A stretch of 32,000 nt of DNA from Sutcliffiella rhizosphaerae (GTDB lineage Bacteria > Bacillota > Bacilli > Bacillales > Bacillaceae_I), in NCBI RefSeq assembly GCF_917563925.1, contig NZ_CAKJTJ010000009.1:77118-109117 (forward strand), in the 5' to 3' direction. The notes below the pieces were generated by a model. It did no database searches. It was not told where the DNA came from and saw only the letters and a list, made by a program, of their open reading frames with translations. Below, piece by piece: positions 2,787-30,550 of this stretch. The position numbers were made by a program, and so were the translations under genes. Position 1 is the stretch's first letter. Each line of letters begins with the position of its first letter.

Positions 2787-3113
2787 AATAGCTTTTTGAA
2801 AAGTTGATTTCGATTTTTTCTCTAGAAGCCTTGTGCTGCAAGATGTTAAGAATTTCTTAATCAAACGTTTGTTTGAAAAAACCTATTGTAGAATAGAGGT
2901 TTGTGTCGATTCTTGTTGATATTAGTCGCGTTTGTGAATTATACCACTACACCTTTTTTAAAAGTTAATTTCTCAAAAAAACTTATCAACCTTATAGCAA
3001 TAAGGATTAGCCATTACTATTAATCGGACGTTCGTTTGAAAATTACTATCTTAAAAAATCATAGATCTGTTACTAATTCACGTGCTGCAGTTTGGAATAT
3101 TGGATTTCACTTC

Positions 3114-3281
3114 ACCTTTCGAAGCATCCGTAAAACCATTCGTGTTCTTTTGGAAAACTTTGATGGTGTTCTGCAAACCTTTCAAGGTGTTTCACGAACC
3201 TTTGATTGTCTTTCGCAAACCTTTGAAGGTATCACTCGTACCTTTGATGCTAACTCGCTAACCTTTCGAGGTCCACGCGTG
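3114..3281. repeat. Tandem array A: 8 units of exactly 21 bp
   Basis: Cores (acctttc, accattc, aactttg, acctttc, acctttg x3, acctttc) start at 3114, 3135, 3156, 3177, 3198, 3219, 3240 and 3261. Plus-strand consensus is AACCTTTGA/CCTTTCGA. On the minus strand it reads CMTCRAAAGGTT. A degenerate unit (tttggaatat) lies at 3093. Confidence 0.9.
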
Positions 3282-3365
3282 ATCTCCATCACATGGGCTC
3301 ACTATGTTCTCGAAAATAGCCCTATTAAAAAAAGCCCTCACTTCAAAAGTGACGGCTTTTTCATT

Positions 3366-4013
3366 TTATTTACTATCTACTAATAATAGGACTTCCGGTT
3401 TATTTGCGTTATTTACGACAAATATACTATATACTGTGTTTTTATCAAATTTCTTCCGAGGTAAGTCTAGAATTTTTTTCCCATCCGTTGTGGTGATCTC
3501 CAAAGCATATTTGCCAGGCTTAAGTTGCTGATATACGGTAATATCTTTGAATGCTACTCCTGTAAATAGTTTGTTCTCTTTTTTGATACGTACATCGACT
3601 TTTGGTGCATCTGGTGAAAGATGTCCCAATCGGACTAGTGTTTTTCCTTTTGGCGCTTTTGTCGTATCTTCCACAGCAATTAATTCTAAGGAGTTCAGCT
3701 TATTAACAGCAGCTAACGTGTAAAATTTCCCGCCATCGAGCGATAGCTCTCTTGAAATAATTGCCTTGTCCTTAGTACCCGCCGGAAAAATCTCCAATTT
3801 ATGTGCACCAGATGCAATTGGGAGGTATTTCGTTGCATCTTTAAATTTAGCCCCACTTACAACTGCTTTATTGTCTATATAAACATCGACAGCTTGTGCA
3901 TCGGGTGAAGCATGCAAAATTCGAACTTTCGCTTCTTGTGGAGCAGCATAGGCATTATTCAGACAACTAAATAAAAATAGGAAAACCAAACTTACACTAA
4001 CTAATTTTTTCAT
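3366..4013 (-). CDS. Secreted DUF4397 domain protein with two internal repeats
   Basis: 215-aa ORF with an N-terminal signal peptide (MKKLVSVSLVFLFLFSCLNNAYA). It has two copies of the (V/L)R(I/L)xHxSPDAPxVDV... module typical of DUF4397. The SD AAGGAG precedes the ATG. Confidence 0.75.
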   Translation of the reverse strand: MKKLVSVSLVFLFLFSCLNNAYAAPQEAKVRILHASPDAQAVDVYIDNKAVVSGAKFKDATKYLPIASGAHKLEIFPAGTKDKAIISRELSLDGGKFYTLAAVNKLNSLELIAVEDTTKAPKGKTLVRLGHLSPDAPKVDVRIKKENKLFTGVAFKDITVYQQLKPGKYALEITTTDGKKILDLPRKKFDKNTVYSIFVVNNANKPEVLLLVDSK

Positions 4014-4131: not shown

Positions 4132-5679
4132 TTATAAAGTTTCAGAAGTTGTTTTTGCTTGTAAGTGAAGTAGTAGGTAATCTGGTCCACCAGCTTTAGA
4201 GTCTGTACCAGACATGTTGAATCCACCAAATGGTTGGTATCCAACGATTGCACCTGTACAACCACGGTTGAAGTATAAGTTACCAACGTGGAAGTCTTCA
4301 CGAGCTTGCTCAATTTTGTCGCGGTTATTAGTGATTACCGCTCCAGTTAAGCCGTACTCTGTGTTGTTAGCAATTTCAAGCGCATGATCGAAGTCTTTTG
4401 CTTTTGCAAATGCTACAACTGGTCCGAAGATTTCTTCTTTCATTAGGCGAGCTTCTGGATCTACGTCTGCAACGATAGTTGGCTGTACGAAGAATCCTTT
4501 GGAGTTGTCCCCTTCTCCACCTGCTGCAATGCGTCCTTCTTCTTTACCGATGCCTACGTATTTCATTACTTTGTCAAACGCAGCTTGGTCGATAACAGGA
4601 CCCATGTAGTTGGATGGATCTGTTGGATCACCAACTGTTAGTTCTTTTGTTAACTCTACTGCACGGTTAAGAACTTGGTCATACACATCTTCCACAATTA
4701 CTGCACGAGAGCATGCAGAACATTTCTGACCAGAGAATCCGAATGCAGATTTTACGATAGATTGAGCTGCTAATTCAAGATCTCCCTCGCTATCTACCAC
4801 AATCGTATCTTTACCACCCATTTCAGCGATTACACGCTTTAACCAAATTTGGCCTGGGTTGACTTTGGAAGCACGCTCATAGATGCGAGTTCCTACATCA
4901 CGAGAACCTGTGAAGGAAATAAAACGAGTACGTGGGTGGTCTACTAAGTAGTCCCCAACCTCAGCTCCGCTTCCTGGTACGAAGTTAAGTACTCCAGTAG
5001 GTAAGCCTGCTTCTTCCATTACTTCTACAAATTTAGCTGCAACTACAGGTGTAGTGGATGCAGGTTTTAATAGTACAGTGTTTCCAGATACAATCGCCGC
5101 AACAGTAGTTCCAGCCATTATTGCAAATGGGAAGTTCCATGGAGAGATGATAACACCTACACCAAGTGGGATATAGTTATAACGGTTATATTCGCCTGGA
5201 CGGCTTTCCACAGGCATTCCGTCTTTTAGTTTTAACATTTGACGTGCATAGTACTCTAGAAAATCAATTGCTTCTGCAGTATCTGCATCTGCCTCATTCC
5301 AAGGCTTCCCTGCTTCTTTCGTTAAAAGTGCAGAGAATTCGTCCTTACGACGACGAATGATAGCTGCCGCACGGAACAAAATGTCTGCTCTTACTTCAGG
5401 CTTCACTTTGCGCCACGTTTTGAACGTTTCATCAGCAACTTGCATTGCTTTCTCCGCTAAGTCACGATCTGCCTTTGATACACGACCAATAACCTCTTCT
5501 TTATTTGCAGGGTTTACGGAAACGATTTTTGATTCAGTCGTAACACGCTCTCCACCGATAACTAAGTCGTAATCTTGTCCTAAATAAGAATTCACTAGCT
5601 TCAAGCCTTCAAGATAAGCTTGTTTATTTTCCTCGTTAGTGAAATCAGTAAATGGTTCATGTTTGTAAGGTAATACCAT
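4132..5679 (-). CDS. pruA: 1-pyrroline-5-carboxylate (L-glutamate gamma-semialdehyde) dehydrogenase, RocA/PutC type
   Basis: Near-colinear with B. subtilis RocA as I recall it (HEPFTDF.., [49 protein letters not shown]). The track ORF starts at 5721, but the ATG at 5679 ([10 protein letters not shown]) has the SD AAGGAGGG and gives the expected 515 aa. Confidence 0.92.
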
Positions 5680-5916: not shown

Positions 5917-6063
5917 GAAAATAGTGATAAAGCTAGGCAAAATATCTAAAAATGTTGTGAAAATATCTAAAAACGTTGTGTATTTATCGATAAATGCTGT
6001 GAAAATATCGATAAGTCTCGGGAATATATCAATAAACACCCTGAACATTTCGATACCATCTAA
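5917..6063. repeat. Tandem array B: 7 units of exactly 21 bp, plus-strand consensus GAAAATATCGAWAA+N7
   Basis: Units start at 5917, 5938, 5959, 5980, 6001, 6022 and 6043 (for example caaaatatctaaaaatgttgt and gaaaatatctaaaaacgttgt). The 14-nt core is essentially the same as array E read on the opposite strand. Confidence 0.9.
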
Positions 6064-6096
6064 ATTTATGGTATTTTCCTTTCATTGGAGCACACC

Positions 6097-9321: not shown

Positions 9322-11586
9322 CTATCCTTGAACTTTCGTTACAGGTGCAAATTTTGCCAATAGCCGTTTAATACCGGTCGGACTTGGAAAAGCGATATCA
9401 AGTTCCTTACTGTCGCCTTCCCCTTTTACACTTACCACTGTTCCGATGCCCCATTTTTTATGTTCCGCTTTGTCACCGACCATCCAATCCAAACTTTCTC
9501 CGCCTGTGGACTTTAACGGACGTGTAGGTGTAGATGCTCGACGTGGGTTTGCAGGCGCAGCTGCAGCTCTTCCTCCACCAAACGGGGTGGACGTTTGCGT
9601 TCTGTTGCCAAATGGAGTTGGGCGGGATTCCGTAATAACTAGACTTTCTATGAGCTCTTCTGGTATTTCTTTTATAAATCGGGATGGGGGATTGATATTG
9701 GTTCGACCAAATAATGTCCGCAGCTGCGCATTTGTAAGGAAGAGTTCTTCTTCTGCACGGGTAATTCCTACATAGGCTAGGCGGCGCTCCTCTTCCATTT
9801 CCGCTTCTTCAAATAAGGAGCGGCTGTGCGGGAAGACACCCTCCTCCATACCAATTAAAAATACTACCGGAAACTCCAATCCTTTCGCCGCGTGAAGTGT
9901 CATTAAAATGACCCCTTCCTGCTGGGCGGCATCCTCTTCATCTAATTTGTCTATATCTGCCACAAGGGCTAGATCTGTTAAAAATGCCACAAGACTTTTG
10001 TCATCGTATTTTTCTTCAAAATTTTTCGTAACAGATAGGAATTCATCAATATTCTCTAGTCTGCTTTGTGATTCAATGGTTTTGTCCGCCTTCAGCATGT
10101 CACGGTAACCAGATTTTTCGAGTACTTCCTCCACAAGTTCAGTGACCGATATATATTCCTGCATTTGTACATAATTCTCAATTAAGGAACGGAACTCCTT
10201 CAACTGAGAAGTCGCTCGTCCACTGACACCAATGAGGTCCACTTCTGCAAGAGCCTGAAAAATAGATATGTCATGCTCTGTTGCATAATTTGCAATTTTA
10301 TCAACAGTCGTCGCTCCAATTCCTCGCTTTGGAACATTAACAATACGCTGCAGACTAATATCATCGTCCGGATTAGCTATTAAGCGTAGATATGCCAGGA
10401 TATCTTTAATTTCTTTACGGTCATAGAACTTTGTCCCGCCTACAATCGTGTAATTGATATTGGACATGAGGAGCATTTCCTCCATTACCCGCGATTGAGC
10501 GTTTGTCCGATAAAGAATGGCAAAATCACCTAGAGTTCGTTTAGGATTCTTTTGCATTAGTTCTCGCATTTTTCCAACAACAAATTGCCCTTCCGATTTC
10601 TCAGAATCGGCTTGATAGTGGACAATTTTTTGCCCTTCATCGTTTTGTGTCCATAGGTTCTTCTTTTTTCGGCTAATATTGTTATCAATCACACGGTTTG
10701 CCGCTTCAAGTATGCGTTTAGTGGAGCGATAGTTCTGCTCAAGTAATACAACCTCTGCTTTTGGATAATCTTTTTCAAAAGAAAGGATGTTGGCAATATC
10801 CGCCCCACGCCAGCGATAGATGGATTGATCGGAGTCCCCTACTACACATAGATTTTGCAAGCGATCTGCAAGTAAATTTACGAGCGTATACTGCGCACGG
10901 TTCGTATCCTGATATTCATCAACATGAATATACTGAAATTTACGTTGATAGTACTCAAGCACTTCAGGCACCCTTTTGAACAGATGGATGGTAGACATAA
11001 TCAAATCATCAAAATCCAGAGCCTGATTTTTCTTCAGCCTTTTTTGATACTCTGTGTAGACCTCGCTCACTTGCTGTTCATAAGGTCCCAGTGGCTGCTT
11101 CGCATATTGCTCTGGGTTGAATAGCTCGTTTTTCGCTGAGCTAATCGTCCCTAAGATTGTTCTTGGTTCAAATTTTTTCGGGTCAATATTGCGGTCTTTT
11201 AAAATACTTTTTATAACCGAAAGCTGATCGGTACTGTCTAGTATCGTAAAATTGCGATTGAAACCAATGCGATCAATATCTCTTCTAAGAATCCTAACGC
11301 ACATGGAGTGGAAAGTAGATATCCAAATATCTTCCGCAGCTGGGCCAAGTATAGTTTCCACACGATCTTTCATTTCACGTGCTGCCTTATTCGTAAAGGT
11401 AATCGCTAAGATATTCCAAGGCGCTATTTGTTTTTCCGCCATTAAATAAGCAATCCGGTGCGTTAACACCTTCGTTTTGCCACTTCCCGCTCCAGCCATG
11501 ATCAATAATGGTCCATCCGTTTTCTTTACTGCTTCCTGTTGCATTGGGTTTAAGCCCTCAAGCAGCCTTTGACTTAAATATTGCAT
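9322..11586 (-). CDS. pcrA: ATP-dependent DNA helicase PcrA (UvrD/Rep superfamily 1)
   Basis: The N-terminus ([37 protein letters not shown]) is nearly identical to B. subtilis PcrA as I recall it. Walker A, DEYQDT and the remaining SF1 motifs are present. Confidence 0.95.
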
Positions 11587-12344: not shown

Positions 12345-12610
12345 TGCAAACTTCCCCCATTCTATTTTACCATTCCTCTATTATAGCAAAATCGGCTAGA
12401 ATACGAAAAAGAGAAAGGAAGAATGTTTGCTGGAAGTTAGGACCTTTTTTGGGATGAGGAGGTGCGGGATGAAGAGTAAGAGATTTTGGCTGGGGGCAGG
12501 GTTGCGGTGGAAACTAATCGTGCATGTGAGGCCGTGGGGGGAGAAAGTTGTGACACGAGTATTCAATAGGCTACACGTTGTGGCGGGTGAAGGTTGTTGG
12601 AATTTGTAGA

Positions 12611-12672
12611 TTCGTCAATATCTTGTCGGGACCGTCGATATTCCATGCGTTTTCGTCGATATTATGGTGGGA
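12611..12672. repeat. Tandem array C: 3 units of 21, 20 and 21 bp
   Basis: Units are ttcgtcaatatcttgtcggga, ccgtcgatattccatgcgtt and ttcgtcgatattatggtggga. On the minus strand the core reads RATATCGACGAA, which is related to the cores of arrays B and E. Confidence 0.65.
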
Positions 12673-12888
12673 CTCCGTTTCTAAACTCCACTTTCCTCCT
12701 TTTTTTACCTGAAACAGCATGTGACCCCCATTTTTTGAAAAGGAACACGAAGCATTTATCCACCTGGACCTCCCCGACCAGTTTTAAGCCCTCATTCAAT
12801 GGGTATTTAGTTCTATATATCATGGTTTTTCTCTAAAGTTGCATAAACAAGGTTTTCGAGAATATGCTTTGATGAGGAGGTGTCCAGA

Positions 12889-13112: not shown

Positions 13113-13424
13113 TTATAATTCCTTCGCCTTTTTCTCTTCTGCAACACGCTCTAGTGCCATTTCGTACGCATCATTTCCATAATTTAGGCAACGCTTTACG
13201 CGCGAGATGGTTGCTGTGCTTGCTCCTGTTTCTGTTTCGATTTTATGATAGGTAAACCCTTCGCGAAGCATTCTTGCTACTTCTAAGCGCTGTGCAAGCG
13301 ATTGAATTTCATTGATGGTACAGAGGTCATCAAAAAATCGATAGCATTCTTCGATATCTTTTAGTGAGAGGACAGATTCAAAAAGTTGATCCAGTTCTTT
13401 TCCTCGTAATTTGTTGATTTGCAT
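13113..13424 (-). CDS. yerC: YerC/YecD-family TrpR-like DNA-binding protein
   Basis: 103-aa ORF with the characteristic motif (RLEVARML..G.TY..I...TGASTATISRVKR). Its syntenic position is between the yerB-like gene and pcrB. The SD AAAGGAG lies 8 nt upstream. Confidence 0.8.
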   Translation of the reverse strand: MQINKLRGKELDQLFESVLSLKDIEECYRFFDDLCTINEIQSLAQRLEVARMLREGFTYHKIETETGASTATISRVKRCLNYGNDAYEMALERVAEEKKAKEL

Positions 13425-18224: not shown

Positions 18225-18470
18225 TGTTACCGTGATTCGGACAAATTTAACTGGGATTTGGACAAACCGGTTGGTGTGTCGGACATTTATACTGGGATTT
18301 CGTTAGCGGTATAGGTTTCGGACATTTATCCCAGGAATTCAAATATATCTGCATGTATTTTGGTCATACCTTGGGGATTCGGGCTTATTTCCAAGTAATT
18401 CAGACATTCACCATGAATTTCGGACATATCGGCAACTTTTTCGGACATAGCTCCATGAATTTCGGACAAA
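18225..18470. repeat. Tandem array D: about 12 units, 21-bp period, inside the purH|purD gap
   Basis: 8-nt cores (ttcggaca and variants) start at 18236, 18257, 18278, 18299, 18317, 18338, 18359, 18378, 18399, 18419, 18440 and 18461. Spacings are 21, 21, 21, 18, 21, 21, 19, 21, 20, 21, 21. On the minus (pur-sense) strand the core reads ATGTCCGAAA. Confidence 0.9.
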
Positions 18471-18516
18471 CTGACTTCATCTGTCTGTCTCTACCTCAAG
18501 ACCGCCCCGCCCCATA

Positions 18517-20046: not shown

Positions 20047-20633
20047 TTTATGACTGCCTCTCCTTTGTTTGCAAAAATTTGTTGTAAGGTTTTCGGGTAA
20101 AATGTATGCTCTGTTTTGTGAATTTTCTTTTCTAGTGATTCTTTCGTTTCGTCAGGATCTACTGTTATTGCTTCCTGAGCAATAATCGGACCTGTATCCA
20201 TGCCCTCGTCCACAAAATGAATCGTTACCCCTGTCAATTTCACTCCATAAGACAATGCCTGTCCCACTGCGTCAAGTCCTGGAAAAGCAGGTAATAAAGA
20301 TGGATGTATGTTGACGATTCTCCCTTTATACGCATCCAGCAAAGTTGGACCTATTAATCTCATATAACCAGCGAGGATGATAAACTCTACCTCGTAACTC
20401 TTTAACTCACTCAGAATATGTTTTTCAAATTCTTGTTTACTTGAATAGCTTTTTGGTGCAAAGGTGAAATACGGTATATCTAAGGATGTAGCACGTTCCA
20501 CTACAAATGCACCAGGCTTATCACATACGAGTAAAGCAGGAGTGGCATCAAGCAATTCATTCCGGCAAGCATCCACTAACGCCTGAAAGTTAGAGCCACT
20601 TCCTGAAGCAAAGATGGCTATTCTTGTTGTCAT
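20043..20633 (-). CDS. purN: Phosphoribosylglycinamide formyltransferase
   Basis: 196 aa with [20 protein letters not shown] and the catalytic D of the formyltransferase fold. It overlaps both purM and purH. Confidence 0.95.
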
Positions 20634-21661
20634 CTCATTTCTCCTCCACCAAAGGTGATCCCCTCACCCTCTTTTACACGTCCGATAAGATAAGCTTTCT
20701 CACCGTTACTCTCTAAAATTTTTACCACATCTTGCAAAATTTCTTCGTTGATTGCTAAGACCATTCCAATTCCCATGTTGAAAATATTGAACATTTCTTT
20801 GCGTTCTAGCTCTCCAAACTCTTGAAGTAAATCAAAGATTGGCGGCATTGGCCAAGTACCGTAATCTATTTCTGCTTGTAGTCCTTCTGGTAGCATGCGG
20901 GGGATATTTTCAATGAAACCTCCACCCGTCACGTGTGCCATTCCGTTTATCGTATGTTTTTTCAAAACCTCTAAGATAGGTTTTACATAAATTTTCGTTG
21001 GTGTAAGAAGTGCTTCACCAAGTGTACTTGCTAATCCAGGATATTTTTTATTTAAATCCAAATTGGCGACAATTTTTCGTACAAGGGAGTATCCATTGCT
21101 GTGAATTCCGCTTGAGCTAAGACCGATTAGGACATTTCCTGCTTGGATGTTAGCTCCTGTAATAAGGCGCTCTTTCTCCACTACCCCAACGGTAAACCCA
21201 GCTAGATCATATTCGCTTTCGTCATACATACCAGGCATTTCCGCTGTTTCGCCACCTATCAAAGCACAGCCTGCTTGTTCGCAACCTTCTGCAATTCCTT
21301 TTACTATGTTTTCGATTCGTTCTGGGACAGCTTTTCCGCACGCAATGTAATCGAGAAAATAAAGTGGTTCAGCTCCTTGAACAACCACATCGTTGACACA
21401 CATCGCAACTGCATCCATCCCAATAGTGTGGTGCTTATCGAGTTGGAATGCTAGCATCAGCTTTGTTCCCACACCATCTGTTCCAGATACGAGAACTGGA
21501 TTTTTCACATTTACTGCCGAAAGATCAAACAAGCCTCCGAAGCCACCAAGTCCACCCATTACTTCTGGTCTCATCGTTTTTGCCACATGTTTTTTCATAC
21601 GGTCTACTGCCTCATACCCAGCTTCTATATCTACACCTGCTTGCTTGTATGCATTTGCCAT
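20630..21661 (-). CDS. purM: Phosphoribosylformylglycinamidine cyclo-ligase (AIR synthetase)
   Basis: The sequence [19 protein letters not shown] matches the PurM N-terminus. The track ORF starts at a TTG at 21676 that lies inside the SD GGGAGGG, so the ATG at 21661 is the likely start (343 aa). Confidence 0.95.
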
Positions 21662-21679
21662 ATGTGTCCCTCCCAATAG

Positions 21680-21716
21680 AAAAGCGACGAATATATAAAT
21701 CCCCGCCGCTTTTTTT
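21680..21716 (-). other. Terminator-like hairpin between array E and the purM SD
   Basis: The minus-strand RNA reads AAAAGCGGCG, a 14-nt loop, CGUCGCUUUU (one G-U pair), then CUAUU. It ends about 6 nt before the purM SD. The plus-strand version carries a T7 run. Confidence 0.35.
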
Positions 21717-21752: not shown

Positions 21753-21920
21753 GAATGACCGTTTGCTTATATTCGGGTCCTTTTCGATGGGCAGACCCGC
21801 CTTTTCGATATTTTCGTGCGGGTTTTTGATATTTTGGACACGTTTTTGGATATTTTCGTATCGCTTTTAGATATTTTATGGACCTTTTTCGATATATTCA
21901 TCCGCTATTTCGATATTTTC
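21753..21920. repeat. Tandem array E: 8 units of exactly 21 bp inside the purF|purM gap
   Basis: Cores (tttgctta, ttcgatgg, ttcgatat, tttgatat, ttggatat, ttagatat, ttcgatat, ttcgatat) start at 21762, 21783, 21804, 21825, 21846, 21867, 21888 and 21909. On the minus (pur-sense) strand the unit is GAAAATATCGAAAA+N7. Confidence 0.92.
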
Positions 21921-21977
21921 AAAAATCCCGGCTTATTTCTTTTCTGTTGTCAATGAGCAATTATCACCCAATAGCCC

Positions 21978-23390
21978 CTAGCACTTCTCATGTGGAAGCA
22001 CCGTATCCGGGAAAATCTCGGTAGGGTACTTTCCTGTGAAGCATGCCATGCATTGCCCGCGCGATTCGCCATCAAATGGACGGTTAATCGCGTCGACCAT
22101 CCCAAATGGACTTAGAAATTCCAACGTATCAGCGCCGATTATCTCACGCATTTCCTCCAAGGAATGGGAAGAAGCAATCAATTCCTCGTGTGTCGAGGTA
22201 TCTATCCCGTAAAAACATGGATTCTTAATAGGTGGTGAGCTTATTCGCACATGCACTTCCGTTGCACCTGCTTCGCGAAGCATGCGGACAATTCGTTTGC
22301 TCGTTGTGCCACGAACAATTGAATCATCCACCATGACTACACGCTTTCCTTCTACCACCCCACGGACAGGAGAGAGCTTCATTTTCACTCCTTGCTCCCG
22401 TAACGATTGGGAAGGCTGGATGAAAGTCCGGCCAACATATCTATTTTTAATTAGGCCAAGCTCATATGGAATTCCGGAAAACTCGGCATAGCCGATGGCT
22501 GCGGAAATACTGGAATCCGGCACACCTGTTACGATATCTGCGTCAATCGGTGACTCAATTGCAAGTTGTTTTCCGAGACTTTTCCTAGCTGTATGGACAT
22601 TGATTCCATCGATATTGCTATCCGGACGGGAAAAATAAATATATTCCATGCTGCACATTGCGCGCTGGGTGTGCATCGTAAACCGCTCTGAATGTAGACC
22701 CCCATTGTCTATTATCAATAGCTCCCCAGGTTCAATATCACGGATAAATTCGGCTCCTACTATATCAAAAGCGCATGTTTCTGATGCTACAACATATGCG
22801 TCATTCAGCTTGCCAAGTGATAGTGGACGTAAGCCGTTTGGGTCCAGTGCTACCATCATTTCTGTCTCTGTCATGATTAAGAAGGCATAGGCTCCCTTTA
22901 ACATAGAAAGGGCGTTTTTCACGCGATCCTTCAACAAGGTATAGCCGCTTCTTTTAATAAGGTGTGCTAAAACTTCTGTATCTGAAGTTGTTTGCAGAAT
23001 GCTCCCCATTGACTCCAGTTGATGCTTTAGGGCATTCGCGTTTACTAGATTACCGTTATGAGCAAGTGCAAGACTACCCGTTTGCGAGTGGAACAAAAGT
23101 GGCTGGACGTTTTCATAGCCACCGCCTCCTGCTGTCGCATAGCGAACATGACCTATTGCCGCTTTACCAGGTAAATCATTCAGCCTGCCATTAGCAAATA
23201 CCTCGTTTACAAGGCCTTCCCCTTTAACTGCGACAAGCTTTTCACCATCTGTTGCCACGATGCCTGCGCCCTCTTGGCCACGGTGCTGTAAACTGTGCAA
23301 GCCATAATAGGTGATTTGAGGAGCTTCAGAATGGCCCCATATTCCAAACACTCCACACTCTTCGTTTAAGCCTTTTAGTTCAGCAAGCAT
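21978..23390 (-). CDS. purF: Amidophosphoribosyltransferase (glutamine PRPP amidotransferase), Fe-S type with propeptide
   Basis: [20 protein letters not shown] is an 11-residue propeptide before the catalytic Cys, as in B. subtilis PurF. C-terminal cluster cysteines are present ([10 protein letters not shown]). Confidence 0.95.
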
Positions 23391-30397: not shown

Positions 30398-30452
30398 CAT
30401 CGCATAGAAAACAGACACATCGCCATGAAAAACATAGATAGTGCAAACTTCC

Positions 30453-30522
30453 CCTCATAGTCCGATCCATTTAAGGTGGTCAGGTAGAGACTTATGGGCC
30501 ATATTCCCAAAATTATATGAGG
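30453..30522 (-). promoter_or_regulatory. Purine riboswitch aptamer, guanine class (C at the discriminator, GACUAUG)
   Basis: The minus RNA is CCUCAUAUAAUUUUGGGAAUAUGGCCCAUAAGUCUCUACCUGACCACCUUAAAUGGAUCGGACUAUGAGG. It matches the G-box consensus (P1 CUCAUA/UAUGAG, UAUAAU, GGAUAUGG-like L2, CUACC, UAAAU L3) and closely resembles the B. subtilis purE leader as I recall it. Confidence 0.88.
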
Positions 30523-30550
30523 TTTCGTTATTTCATTGTTATCTACGTCT

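What the first reader, a model, noticed from the sequence alone, without database searches (positions are those of the whole stretch)
21753..21920. Array E sits inside the pur operon and inflates the purF|purM gap to about 316 bp
Eight perfect-phase 21-bp units lie between the purF stop (21978) and the purM start (21661). From memory of the B. subtilis operon, this is one of the naturally short intercistronic gaps separating the overlapping clusters purEKB / purCSQLF / purMNH / purD. The purB|purC gap here is only 75 nt. I see no sigmaA promoter in the insert, so purMNHD mRNA would have to read through it. That would place eight copies of GAAAAUAUCGAAAA, 21 nt apart, on the polycistronic RNA. 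Such an arrangement could act as a repeated RNA-protein binding platform, a processing or decay determinant, or a transcriptional roadblock site. In the DNA, the A4 tracts start at unit positions 2 and 11. Their spacing alternates 9 and 12 bp (mean 10.5), the classic phased A-tract layout that gives strong intrinsic curvature.
Basis: partly seen in the sequence, partly recalled or inferred. Interest (0 to 1): 0.65.

Follow-up and report, generated by a model that had tools for sequence, protein, structure and literature searches.

The report
Phased 21-bp repeat array inside pur operon
The repeat between purF and purM is real and is one copy of an apparently undescribed family of non-coding arrays, repeated exactly every 21 bp (two turns of the DNA helix), that fill intergenic gaps in Sutcliffiella and some related bacilli, evolve more slowly than neutral DNA, and probably act on DNA rather than as a regulator specific to the purine operon.

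Summary
**Observation: confirmed, with a correction.** The 316-bp purF|purM gap of this Sutcliffiella rhizosphaerae window holds six well-kept copies of GAAAATATCGAAAA (≤2 mismatches). They sit on the pur sense strand at exactly 21-bp spacing. Two further in-phase units are decayed, so the count is six good copies, not eight.

**It is not specific to the pur operon.**
- The window carries four more 21-bp arrays. Array B has the same core in the opposite orientation.
- Seven of nine Sutcliffiella-group genomes have a 21-bp array in this same gap. They show at least four different cores and lie on either side of a conserved hairpin.
- Gaps without an array measure 36–115 bp. Gaps with one measure 254–588 bp.

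**What the arrays are not.** They are not coding, not structured RNA, not in Rfam, not MITE-like, and have no match in plasmids or phages.

**Evidence for constraint.** Orthologous arrays in relatives diverge at about half the rate of four-fold degenerate sites, and cores vary less than spacers.

**Curvature.** Array E is predicted to be strongly curved, but only about a third of the family is.

**Best reading (about 0.4).** A DNA-level, same-face docking array for an unidentified protein, read through passively by pur transcription.

**Rivals.** A neutral minisatellite, or an RNA-level element. No description of these arrays was found in the literature searched.

The parts
21978..23390 (-). 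purF (amidophosphoribosyltransferase). The stop codon is at 21978-21980.
   Evidence: TIGR01134, 557 bits against a cut-off of 350
21802..21920 (-). Array E, well-kept part. Six copies of the core GAAAATATCGAAAA (0-2 mismatches) at exactly 21-bp spacing. They are separated by 7-8-bp GC-rich spacers that are all different.
21760..21801 (-). Array E, decayed part. Two in-phase but degenerate units: CTGCCCATCGAAAA and GAATATAAGCAAAC.
   Evidence: (register table)
21680..21713 (-). Conserved hairpin AAAGCGGCGGG..TTCGTCGCTTT just upstream of the purM ribosome-binding site. It has 12 pairs, three of them G·U, so it is stable only in the sense RNA. It is present in 8 Sutcliffiella-group genomes, either right after purF or right before purM.
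21668..21674 (-). purM ribosome-binding site GGGAGGG. The purM ATG is at 21661.
   Evidence: read from sequence
20630..21661 (-). purM (AIR synthetase), 100% identical to the Sutcliffiella rhizosphaerae protein
5918..6064 (+). Array B. It has the same core family (GAAAATATCGATAAA / ..TCTAAAA) and a 21-bp period. It lies between two minus-strand genes, so it is inverted relative to E with respect to local transcription.
3111..3278 (+). Array A, 21-bp period, core AACCTTTGAAGGT, between convergent genes. A gene caller placed a 115-aa ORF without any Pfam hit over it.
12620..12683 (-). Array C, three units with core AATATCGACG, in the yerC-like|pcrB gap. It is syntenic with larger arrays in relatives.
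18225..18472 (+). Array D in the purH|purD gap (350 bp here, 31-34 bp in THAF10, S. halmapala GCA_002019665.1, S. cohnii and B. tianshenii). Core (A)TTTCGGACA, mostly 21-bp spacing with some phase slips.

Best explanation
Array E is one member of a lineage-restricted family of non-coding direct-repeat arrays. The family occurs in the Sutcliffiella group, and I saw at least one example in Neobacillus.

**The defining trait is geometry, not sequence.** A 9-14-bp core is repeated every 21 bp, which is two helical turns, so all cores face the same side of the duplex. The 7-12-bp spacers between cores drift.

**Proposed mechanism.** I think the arrays act on double-stranded DNA as multi-site, same-face docking platforms for a cooperatively binding protein that has not been identified. 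This resembles iterons or centromere-like sites. In arrays with A-tract cores, such as E and B, intrinsic curvature would help.

**Why E sits in the pur operon.** The purF|purM spacer is a permissive, recurrently occupied intergenic site. RNA polymerase simply reads through E, and the conserved hairpin plus ribosome-binding site next to purM stay intact.

**Shown:** the geometry, the family, non-coding status, lack of RNA structure, turnover of cores between species, constraint on orthologous arrays in relatives, and the predicted curvature of E.

**Inferred:** protein binding, DNA-level action, and the absence of a pur-specific role.
For: **Strict period**
- In 208 kb of Sutcliffiella-group DNA, lag 21 gives 12 periodic regions, lag 42 gives 16 and lag 63 gives 8. 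Every other lag from 9 to 63 gives 3 or fewer.
- The period stays at 21 even where homologous cores differ by a 2-nt indel: THAF10 AGTGTCACAATAA against CHD6a AGTCACAATCA.

**Core/spacer pattern**
- Differences between units cluster in one contiguous spacer.

**Constraint in orthologous arrays**
- Three orthologous arrays in S. halmapala, B. haimaensis and B. tianshenii diverge by 0.11-0.14 per site. Four-fold sites of purF and purM diverge by 0.23-0.29 (Fisher p ≤ 4e-5 for each pair).
- Within one of these arrays, core columns vary in 7/54 cases against 24/72 for spacer columns (p = 0.012).

**Orientation does not matter**
- E and B share a core but are inverted relative to local transcription.
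- TATCGATCCAAAA occurs in both orientations at two loci of B. tianshenii.

**Not RNA-structured and not coding**
- Fold z-scores are -1.2 for the sense strand, -0.6 for the antisense strand and 0.0 for the whole gap.
- There are no Rfam hits.
- No frame is open across the S. halmapala and THAF10 arrays.

**Curvature**
- E, B and four other arrays are predicted to be strongly curved.

**Precedent for the geometry**
- LytTR regulators bind 9-bp direct repeats separated by 12 bp (PMC2766830).
- Centromere-like sites stbS, parC and tubC are helically phased direct-repeat arrays, some arranged in two sets (bioRxiv 10.1101/2022.04.29.490116). The paired six-unit arrays resemble this.
Against: - No binding protein has been identified, and no candidate gene sits next to the arrays.
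- Cores differ between arrays in one genome, and between species at one site. A single sequence-specific binder cannot explain them all.
- Several cores do look like variants of one motif (TATCGA / TTCGG / TGTCGC), but others do not (AACCTTTGAAGG, GTGAGAACC).
- The constraint was measured on arrays in relatives, not on E itself. No close orthologue of E was available.
- The curvature model uses wedge parameters recalled from memory.
- Only 6 of 14 arrays stand out as curved.
- The census covers only about 230 kb and is biased towards one syntenic region.
Confidence: 0.4

Rival explanations
1. Functionless or selfish minisatellite. The arrays arise and grow by replication slippage or unequal exchange in permissive intergenic DNA. 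Cores look conserved only because units with intact cores keep taking part in expansion or short-patch conversion. The array has no role for the cell or for the pur operon.
For: - Higher-order 42- and 63-bp repeats show growth by tandem duplication.
- Array edges are decayed.
- Cores are replaced between species at the same site. S. halmapala keeps remnants of an older array next to a young one.
- The same operon gaps in relatives also collect a second, unrelated ~130-bp interspersed element.
- No shared flanks and no associated gene were found.
- Cores at orthologous sites differ between species in every unit at once: ATTCAGCCAC against ATTCTGTCCAC.
Against: - Orthologous arrays diverge at half the four-fold-site rate, with unchanged unit number across three species.
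- Spacers are saturated while cores are intact, which neutral decay does not produce.
- A pure slippage process gives no reason for one exclusive period of 21 bp, nor for that period surviving core indels.
Confidence: 0.25
2. RNA-level cis element of the pur mRNA. Six to eight GAAAAUAUCGAAAA motifs on the polycistronic transcript recruit an RNA-binding protein or an RNase. This would set the purF:purM expression ratio or the transcript's stability.
For: - E lies inside the operon on the sense strand with no internal promoter, so it is certainly transcribed.
- It is A-rich and unstructured, which makes it accessible.
- Arrays occupy this junction in 7 of 9 relatives.
Against: - Cores at this junction are unrelated between species, for example GTGAGAACC, TTTTGGATCGATTAT and AGTGTCGCAATAA.
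- Arrays lie on either side of the conserved hairpin.
- The same core family occurs inverted relative to transcription, and between convergent or divergent genes.
- S. horikoshii, S. cohnii and Litchfieldia do without any array.
Confidence: 0.12
3. Intrinsic DNA curvature is itself the selected property. Any bend-producing unit repeated every two helical turns adds up in phase. This would explain a fixed period combined with arbitrary cores.
For: - E has an end-to-end/contour ratio of 0.51. B, the second CHD6a array, the Neobacillus array and one B. tianshenii array are also in the top ~1% of genomic windows.
- The period is conserved across different cores.
Against: Arrays A, D, both THAF10 arrays and both S. 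halmapala-type arrays are no more curved than arrays built from permuted units. They fall at the 28th-86th percentile. The model parameters were recalled from memory.
Confidence: 0.1
4. Binding sites of a LytTR-type response regulator, which binds 9-bp direct repeats separated by 12 bp.
For: The geometry (9-14-bp core, direct orientation, 21-bp centre-to-centre) is the hallmark of LytTR sites (PMC2766830).
Against: - The LytTR consensus [TA][AC][CA]GTTN[AG][TG] is absent from E: 0 hits at ≥8/9 against 2.3 expected.
- The consensus is not enriched in most other arrays.
- LytTR sites come in pairs upstream of promoters, not in arrays of 6-10 inside operons.
- No LytTR gene lies in the window.
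Confidence: 0.05
5. A small protein with heptad repeats (21 bp = 7 codons) is encoded on the plus strand. The candidate is the 46-aa ORF at 21816-21956, with a repeated (F/L)xDIF motif.
For: - One plus-strand frame is open across E. The equivalent frame is open across B.
- A gene caller called an ORF over array A.
Against: - The ORF has a GTG start without a ribosome-binding site.
- No frame is open across the S. halmapala or THAF10 arrays.
- Third-codon positions of the core are as invariant as the first two.
- There is no homologue among 5.8 billion proteins.
Confidence: 0.02

Closest known systems
STAR elements of Staphylococcus (interspersed intergenic direct repeats)
   Same: - Found in Bacillales.
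- Strictly intergenic.
- A short conserved core is repeated in direct orientation with locus-specific spacers.
- Loci are stable within lineages but differ between species.
- There are no transposase-like flanks.
- Function is unknown, but conservation has been argued to imply function (PMC3532100).
   Different: - STAR has one GC-rich 14-bp core genome-wide and spacers of at least 40 bp. It has no helical phasing.
- The arrays here have a strict 21-bp period, 7-12-bp spacers and array-specific, mostly AT-rich cores.
Plasmid iterons and centromere-like sites (parC, tubC, stbS)
   Same: - Arrays of 5-12 short direct repeats are phased with the helix, so a protein coats one face.
- They are sometimes arranged in two sets (bioRxiv 10.1101/2022.04.29.490116). 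The paired six-unit arrays in B. tianshenii and S. halmapala resemble this.
   Different: - The known sites lie next to their rep or par genes on plasmids, and each replicon has a single core.
- The arrays here are chromosomal and numerous (5 in 32 kb), have many cores, and have no neighbouring partner gene.
- E has no similarity to anything in the PLSDB plasmid or INPHARED phage collections.
LytTR-regulator operator geometry
   Same: Direct repeats of about 9-10 bp with 11-12-bp spacers, giving a 21-bp period (PMC2766830).
   Different: - The LytTR consensus sequence is not present in E.
- The copy number here is 6-10 instead of 2.
- The arrays are not positioned at promoters.
REP/BIME elements of enterobacteria
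   Same: They are abundant short repeats that settle in intercistronic gaps of operons and are transcribed as part of the mRNA (from my own knowledge).
   Different: - REPs are palindromic and form RNA hairpins.
- They are spread by RAYT transposases.
- They share one consensus.
- E is a direct repeat without structure.
Phased A-tract curved DNA (for example kinetoplast-type bends and curved upstream activating DNA)
   Same: In E and B, A4 tracts recur at a mean spacing of 10.5 bp, and the DNA is predicted to be strongly curved.
   Different: Most other members of the family lack A-tracts and lack predicted curvature.

Membership tests
Tandem/periodic repeat (is it real) | Repeat period significantly above chance at the stated coordinates | tested here: met
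   - TRF scores are 70 (period 21) and 123 (period 42).
- Lag-21 self-identity is 0.63-0.68, while every other lag except 42 stays at or below 0.47.
- The window has 27 core matches against 9.6 ± 2.9 expected.
STAR-like interspersed intergenic direct repeats | Conserved short core in direct orientation, with variable locus-specific spacers, located in intergenic regions | tested here: met
   All 15 arrays examined lie between genes.
STAR-like interspersed intergenic direct repeats | Core matches the STAR consensus T(G/A/T)TGTTG(G/T)GGCCC(C/A), with spacers of at least 40 bp | tested here: not met
   The cores are GAAAATATCGAAAA and others, and the spacers are 7-12 bp. The STAR consensus is taken from PMC3532100.
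Plasmid iterons / partition centromeres | Helically phased direct repeats | tested here: met
   The spacing is exactly 21 bp in E and in most other arrays.
Plasmid iterons / partition centromeres | Adjacent cognate rep or par gene, or location on a mobile replicon | tested here: not met
   - The neighbours of E are purF and purM.
- The neighbours of the CHD6a arrays are a peptidase, an MFS transporter, a GNAT and a NUDIX protein.
- There is no plasmid or phage match.
Plasmid iterons / partition centromeres | Bound cooperatively by a specific protein | not testable with these tools
   This needs EMSA, DAP-seq or ChIP.
LytTR operator | Two or more direct repeats with a 21-bp centre-to-centre distance | tested here: met
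   The defining geometry is taken from PMC2766830.
LytTR operator | Consensus [TA][AC][CA]GTTN[AG][TG] in each repeat (recalled from Nikolskaya & Galperin 2002) | tested here: not met
   E has 0 hits at ≥8/9 against 2.3 expected. There is no in-phase enrichment in most arrays.
CRISPR array | Repeats of about 23-50 bp with unique spacers of similar length, and cas genes or a leader | tested here: not met
   The core is 9-14 bp and the spacer 7-12 bp. No cas-like ORFs are among the window genes scanned. Only 10 of the window ORFs were scanned against a family library.
MITE / REP-type mobile element | Flanking sequences or terminal inverted repeats shared between copies at different loci | tested here: not met
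   An all-against-all BLAST of 220-bp flanks from 13 arrays finds only orthologous gene flanks.
Structured cis-regulatory RNA / known RNA family | Rfam match, or folding energy below that of shuffles | tested here: not met
   Rfam reports only the purine riboswitch at 30438-30540. Fold z-scores are -1.17, -0.64 and -0.01.
Protein-coding heptad repeat | An open frame across the arrays in all family members, plus homologues in protein databases | tested here: not met
Intrinsically curved DNA | Predicted curvature above that of genomic DNA and of permuted-unit controls | tested here: met
   E has a ratio of 0.512, in the top 0.3% of genomic windows and the top 2% of permuted-unit arrays. The test is inconclusive for the family as a whole, since only 6 of 14 arrays are curved.

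The most novel reading that the evidence does not exclude
Sutcliffiella and some other Bacillaceae carry a previously undescribed class of chromosomal 'two-turn arrays'. There may be hundreds of intergenic tracts in which an arbitrary 9-14-bp core is kept every 21 bp under purifying selection, while cores are replaced wholesale between loci and species.

Such behaviour would call for one of the following:
- a modular or nucleic-acid-guided binding system that can follow changing cores;
- a dedicated array-building mechanism that makes a repeat plus a new spacer, analogous to CRISPR adaptation or to repeated target-site duplication;
- a chromosome-structuring role that reads geometry instead of sequence.
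Probability: 0.2. Interest if true: 0.8.

Novelty: new variant of a known kind. Interest (0 to 1): 0.55.

Why it matters
If the arrays are functional, they would be a new kind of bacterial chromosomal element defined by helical geometry instead of by sequence. They are abundant (five in 32 kb here) and are tolerated even inside an essential biosynthetic operon.

They would offer a tractable system for three questions:
- how phased binding-site arrays are born, homogenised and replaced;
- what reads them;
- how operons cope with 150-500 bp of foreign, curved, protein-coated DNA between cistrons.

Even if they turn out to be selfish, the exclusive 21-bp period and the core/spacer pattern point to an unknown generating or maintaining mechanism.

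In practical terms, the arrays produce spurious ORF calls. They also explain the erratic intercistronic distances in Sutcliffiella pur operons.

Tried and rejected
- **Coding hypothesis.** One frame is open over E and B, but none over the S. halmapala or THAF10 arrays, and a search of 5.8 billion proteins gave no hit.
- **Known RNA families.** Rfam finds nothing in the gap. Folding is not better than shuffles. A long-range stem between the G-rich and C-rich flanks of a B. tianshenii locus is also no better than shuffles (z = +1.3).
- **Mobile element with flanks.** Rejected. Inverted-repeat searches gave only weak or compositional pairs.
- **Plasmid or phage origin.** No similarity. Viral scans with core patterns returned only perfect coding heptad repeats.
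- **Genome-wide pattern scan of GTDB representatives**. Most hits were chance matches in AT-rich genomes. True arrays appeared only in Bacillus sp. CHD6a and Neobacillus. S. rhizosphaerae itself was not returned, so it is apparently not in that collection.
- **Metagenome scan**. Dominated by near-perfect 21-bp tandem repeats, so it was uninformative.
- **PurR PurBox idea for array D** (TCCGAAAT). The matching array in CHD6a is not near purine genes.
- **Resemblances to other binding sites.** I considered Spo0A (TGTCGAA), DnaA-box, CtsR, SpoIIID, ArgR/AhrC and SinR motifs from memory. Each fits only some cores, so I dropped them as coincidences.
- **LytTR consensus.** Tested and not met.
- **Literature.** Nine searches found no description of these arrays.

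Full report
**Where the window comes from**

The window is from Sutcliffiella rhizosphaerae; its PurM is 100% identical to that species' protein. It is syntenic with the Bacillus subtilis purE…purD-yerABC-pcrB-pcrA-ligA-yerH region. The pur operon lies on the minus strand, behind a purine riboswitch at 30438-30540.

**The observation**

purF ends at 21978 and purM starts at 21661, so the gap is 316 bp.

- Tandem Repeats Finder reports periods of 21 and 42 at 21801-21919.
- On the sense (minus) strand, GAAAATATCGAAAA occurs six times with 0-2 mismatches, at 21802, 21823, 21844, 21865, 21886 and 21907. The spacing is exactly 21 bp each time.
- The 7-8-bp spacers between copies are all different.
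- Two further in-phase units towards purM are decayed.
- The window has 27 near-matches against 9.6 ± 2.9 in shuffles.
- Lags 21 and 42 are the only lags from 5 to 60 with raised self-identity anywhere in the window.

The observation therefore holds, but with six good copies instead of eight. A consensus scan finds no sigma-A-like promoter on the sense strand.

**E is not a pur-specific feature**

The window holds four more arrays with the same period.

| Array | Coordinates | Core | Location |
|---|---|---|---|
| A | 3111-3278 | AACCTTTGAAGGT | between convergent genes |
| B | 5918-6064 | GAAAATATCGATAAA | between two minus-strand genes |
| C | 12620-12683 | AATATCGACG | yerC-like\|pcrB gap |
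| D | 18225-18472 | TTTCGGACA | purH\|purD gap |

B has the same core as E but lies on the other strand relative to its flanking genes.

I fetched the same locus from eight Sutcliffiella-group genomes and one outgroup.

| Genome | purF\|purM gap (bp) | 21-bp array | Core | Position relative to the hairpin |
|---|---|---|---|---|
| Litchfieldia alkalitelluris (outgroup) | 36 | no | – | – |
| S. horikoshii | 92 | no | – | – |
| S. cohnii | 115 | no | – | – |
| Bacillus sp. CHD6a | 254 | yes | AAAGTYACAATMA | upstream |
| S. halmapala GCA_002019665.1 | 278 | yes | GTGAGAACC | downstream |
| S. rhizosphaerae (this window) | 316 | yes | GAAAATATCGAAAA | upstream |
| B. haimaensis | 420 | yes | TTTTGGATCGATTAT | downstream |
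| S. halmapala GCA_050107295.1 | 421 | yes | TTTTGGATCGATTAT | downstream |
| B. tianshenii | 423 | yes | TTTTGGATCGATTAT | downstream |
| Bacillus sp. THAF10 | 588 | yes | AGTGTCGCAATAA | upstream |

- Every long gap contains a 21-bp array, but the cores differ.
- S. halmapala GCA_002019665.1 keeps remnants of the GATCGAT-type array next to a young GTGAGAACC array.
- In 208 kb of DNA from this group, lag 21 yields 12 periodic regions, lag 42 yields 16 and lag 63 yields 8. Every other lag from 9 to 63 yields 3 or fewer.
- The THAF10 and CHD6a cores are homologous but differ by a 2-nt indel, yet both arrays keep the 21-bp period.

**What the arrays are not**

- **Not coding.** One frame happens to be open over E and B, but none is open over the S. 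halmapala and THAF10 arrays. The peptide has no relative among 5.8 billion proteins.
- **Not structured RNA.** Fold z-scores are -1.2, -0.6 and 0.0, and Rfam finds nothing.
- **Not MITE-like.** Flanks of non-syntenic arrays share nothing.
- **Not derived from plasmids or phages in the collections searched**.
- **E-type core outside this lineage.** A scan of 185,579 species genomes with a two-unit E/B pattern found genuine arrays only in Bacillus sp. CHD6a and in Neobacillus. CHD6a also has a TTCGGTCAA array that resembles array D.

**Evidence for constraint**

Within arrays, differences between units are concentrated in one contiguous spacer while cores stay intact. Spacers in E are effectively randomised.

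Three arrays are orthologous among S. halmapala GCA_050107295.1, B. haimaensis and B. tianshenii and have identical unit numbers.

- Pooled, they differ at 0.109, 0.143 and 0.135 of sites for the three species pairs.
- Four-fold degenerate sites of purF and purM differ at 0.228, 0.263 and 0.291 (Fisher p ≤ 4e-5 for each pair).
- In two of the three pairs the arrays are also more conserved than adjacent non-array intergenic DNA.
- In the purF|purM array of these species, core columns vary in 7/54 cases against 24/72 for spacer columns (p = 0.012).

These tests are on relatives' arrays, not on E itself, and the three pairs are not independent.

Cores at orthologous sites also differ between species in every unit at once. 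An example is ATTCAGCCAC in THAF10 against ATTCTGTCCAC in B. tianshenii. Two adjacent six-unit arrays in B. tianshenii and S. halmapala are unit-by-unit duplicates that differ by one G→T in every core. This is concerted change that simple purifying selection for one fixed binder does not explain.

**Curvature**

I used a wedge-model trajectory with Bolshoy-type parameters recalled from memory. The model behaved correctly on phased and unphased A6 controls.

- E is strongly curved. Its end-to-end/contour ratio is 0.51, against about 0.95 for genomic windows.
- That places E in the top 0.3% of genomic windows and the top 2% of arrays made from the same units with permuted internal order.
- B, the TTCGGTCAA array of CHD6a, the Neobacillus array and one B. 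tianshenii array are also curved.
- A, D, both THAF10 arrays and both S. halmapala-type arrays are not.

**The conserved hairpin**

The native content of the gap appears to be a conserved hairpin, AAAGCGGCGGG…TTCGTCGCTTT.

- It has 12 pairs, three of them G·U, so it folds only in the sense RNA.
- In the window, THAF10, CHD6a and S. horikoshii it sits 8-10 nt upstream of the purM ribosome-binding site.
- In both S. halmapala genomes, B. haimaensis and B. tianshenii it sits directly after purF.
- Arrays have entered on either side of it.

**Interpretation**

The strict two-turn period, direct orientation, indifference to strand, absence of RNA structure and moderate purifying selection fit best with a DNA-level, same-face, multi-site docking array.

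The geometry has known precedents:
- LytTR operators, with 9-bp repeats separated by 12 bp (PMC2766830);
- helically phased centromere-like arrays such as stbS, parC and tubC (bioRxiv 10.1101/2022.04.29.490116).

E does not contain the LytTR consensus. There is no neighbouring partner gene.

As a genomic phenomenon, the closest described analogue is the STAR element of Staphylococcus. It has a short conserved core, locus-specific spacers, an intergenic location and an unknown function (PMC3532100). STAR differs in having one GC-rich core, spacers of at least 40 bp and no helical phasing.

The main rival is a functionless minisatellite kept homogeneous by slippage or conversion. Several observations favour it:
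- the 42- and 63-bp higher-order repeats;
- the decayed array edges;
- the replacement of cores between species;
- the fact that the same operon gaps in relatives also collect an unrelated ~130-bp interspersed element.

That rival does not account for the exclusive period or for the reduced divergence.

The unrelated cores at the same junction, the inverted copy B, and relatives that lack any array all weaken it.

**Verdict**

This is a real and statistically solid array. Its significance is broader than the finding suggested, because it belongs to a family of phased arrays that I could not find described in the held library. It is also less pur-specific than the finding suggested. The function is unproven. 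I rate the DNA-platform reading at about 0.4.

Noticed in passing
window 21680-21713 (-); L002 9950-9985; L003 9944-9975; L004 9748-9775; L085-L088 ~9590-9625: A conserved 12-pair hairpin (AAAGCGGCGGG..TTCGTCGCTTT) with three G·U pairs, so it is stable only in the sense RNA. It lies between purF and purM in eight Sutcliffiella-group genomes. Its position is either right after the purF stop or 8-10 nt before the purM ribosome-binding site. It could be a leaky terminator, a processing site or a stabiliser.
   Followed up: partly
window 3111-3278, 5918-6064, 12620-12683, 18225-18472: Four further 21-bp-period arrays (A-D) lie in the same 32 kb. B shares E's core in the opposite orientation. D inflates the purH|purD gap to 350 bp, against 31-34 bp in four relatives.
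   Followed up: yes
L088 18911-19036 and 19100-19225; L085 19030-19155 and 19220-19345: Two adjacent six-unit arrays are unit-by-unit duplicates. They share the same alternation of ..CCAAAA.. and ..CCACTTTCC.. units and the same odd third unit. They differ by one G→T in every core (ATCGGTCC against ATCTGTCC). Both are more conserved between species than four-fold sites.
   Followed up: partly
L086 4115-4250 (reverse orientation), 4330-4440, 13200-13330; L085 4150-4280; L003 13155-13330; L238 11690-11810: A different ~130-bp interspersed element (…GAGACCCC…GAGGAGGCTC…CGCGGAAAG…) fills the purB|purC, purN|purH and purH|purD gaps of relatives and of Litchfieldia. There is no copy in the window and no Rfam hit.
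   Followed up: partly
L088 19230-19365; L002 9650-9725 and 19060-19125; window 12420-12600 (-): Several arrays are preceded by a G-rich stretch and followed by a very C-rich, G-poor stretch, in the direction of the downstream gene. In B. tianshenii the C-rich part is itself repetitive (CGCAGCACACCAC three times). One copy is a perfect 13-nt inverted match to a sequence 493 bp upstream. The RNA fold is not better than shuffles.
   Followed up: partly
window 21826-21854 (+) and 6004-6032 (-): At 21-bp spacing, the E/B core automatically creates a promoter-like TTGATA-17-GATATT pair. In E it points antisense to the pur operon. In B it points towards the downstream aldehyde dehydrogenase gene. 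The match is only 9 of 12 and is not above chance.
   Followed up: no
window 3036-3383 (+) = L117 7529-7876: A public gene call (115 aa, no Pfam hit) lies exactly over array A. It is probably a spurious ORF created by the stop-free repeat.
   Followed up: partly
L238 18540-20960: Litchfieldia alkalitelluris has a 2.4-kb stretch without any called gene between the yerC-like gene and pcrB. The Sutcliffiella genomes have their arrays at this position. No 21-bp periodicity is present there.
   Followed up: no
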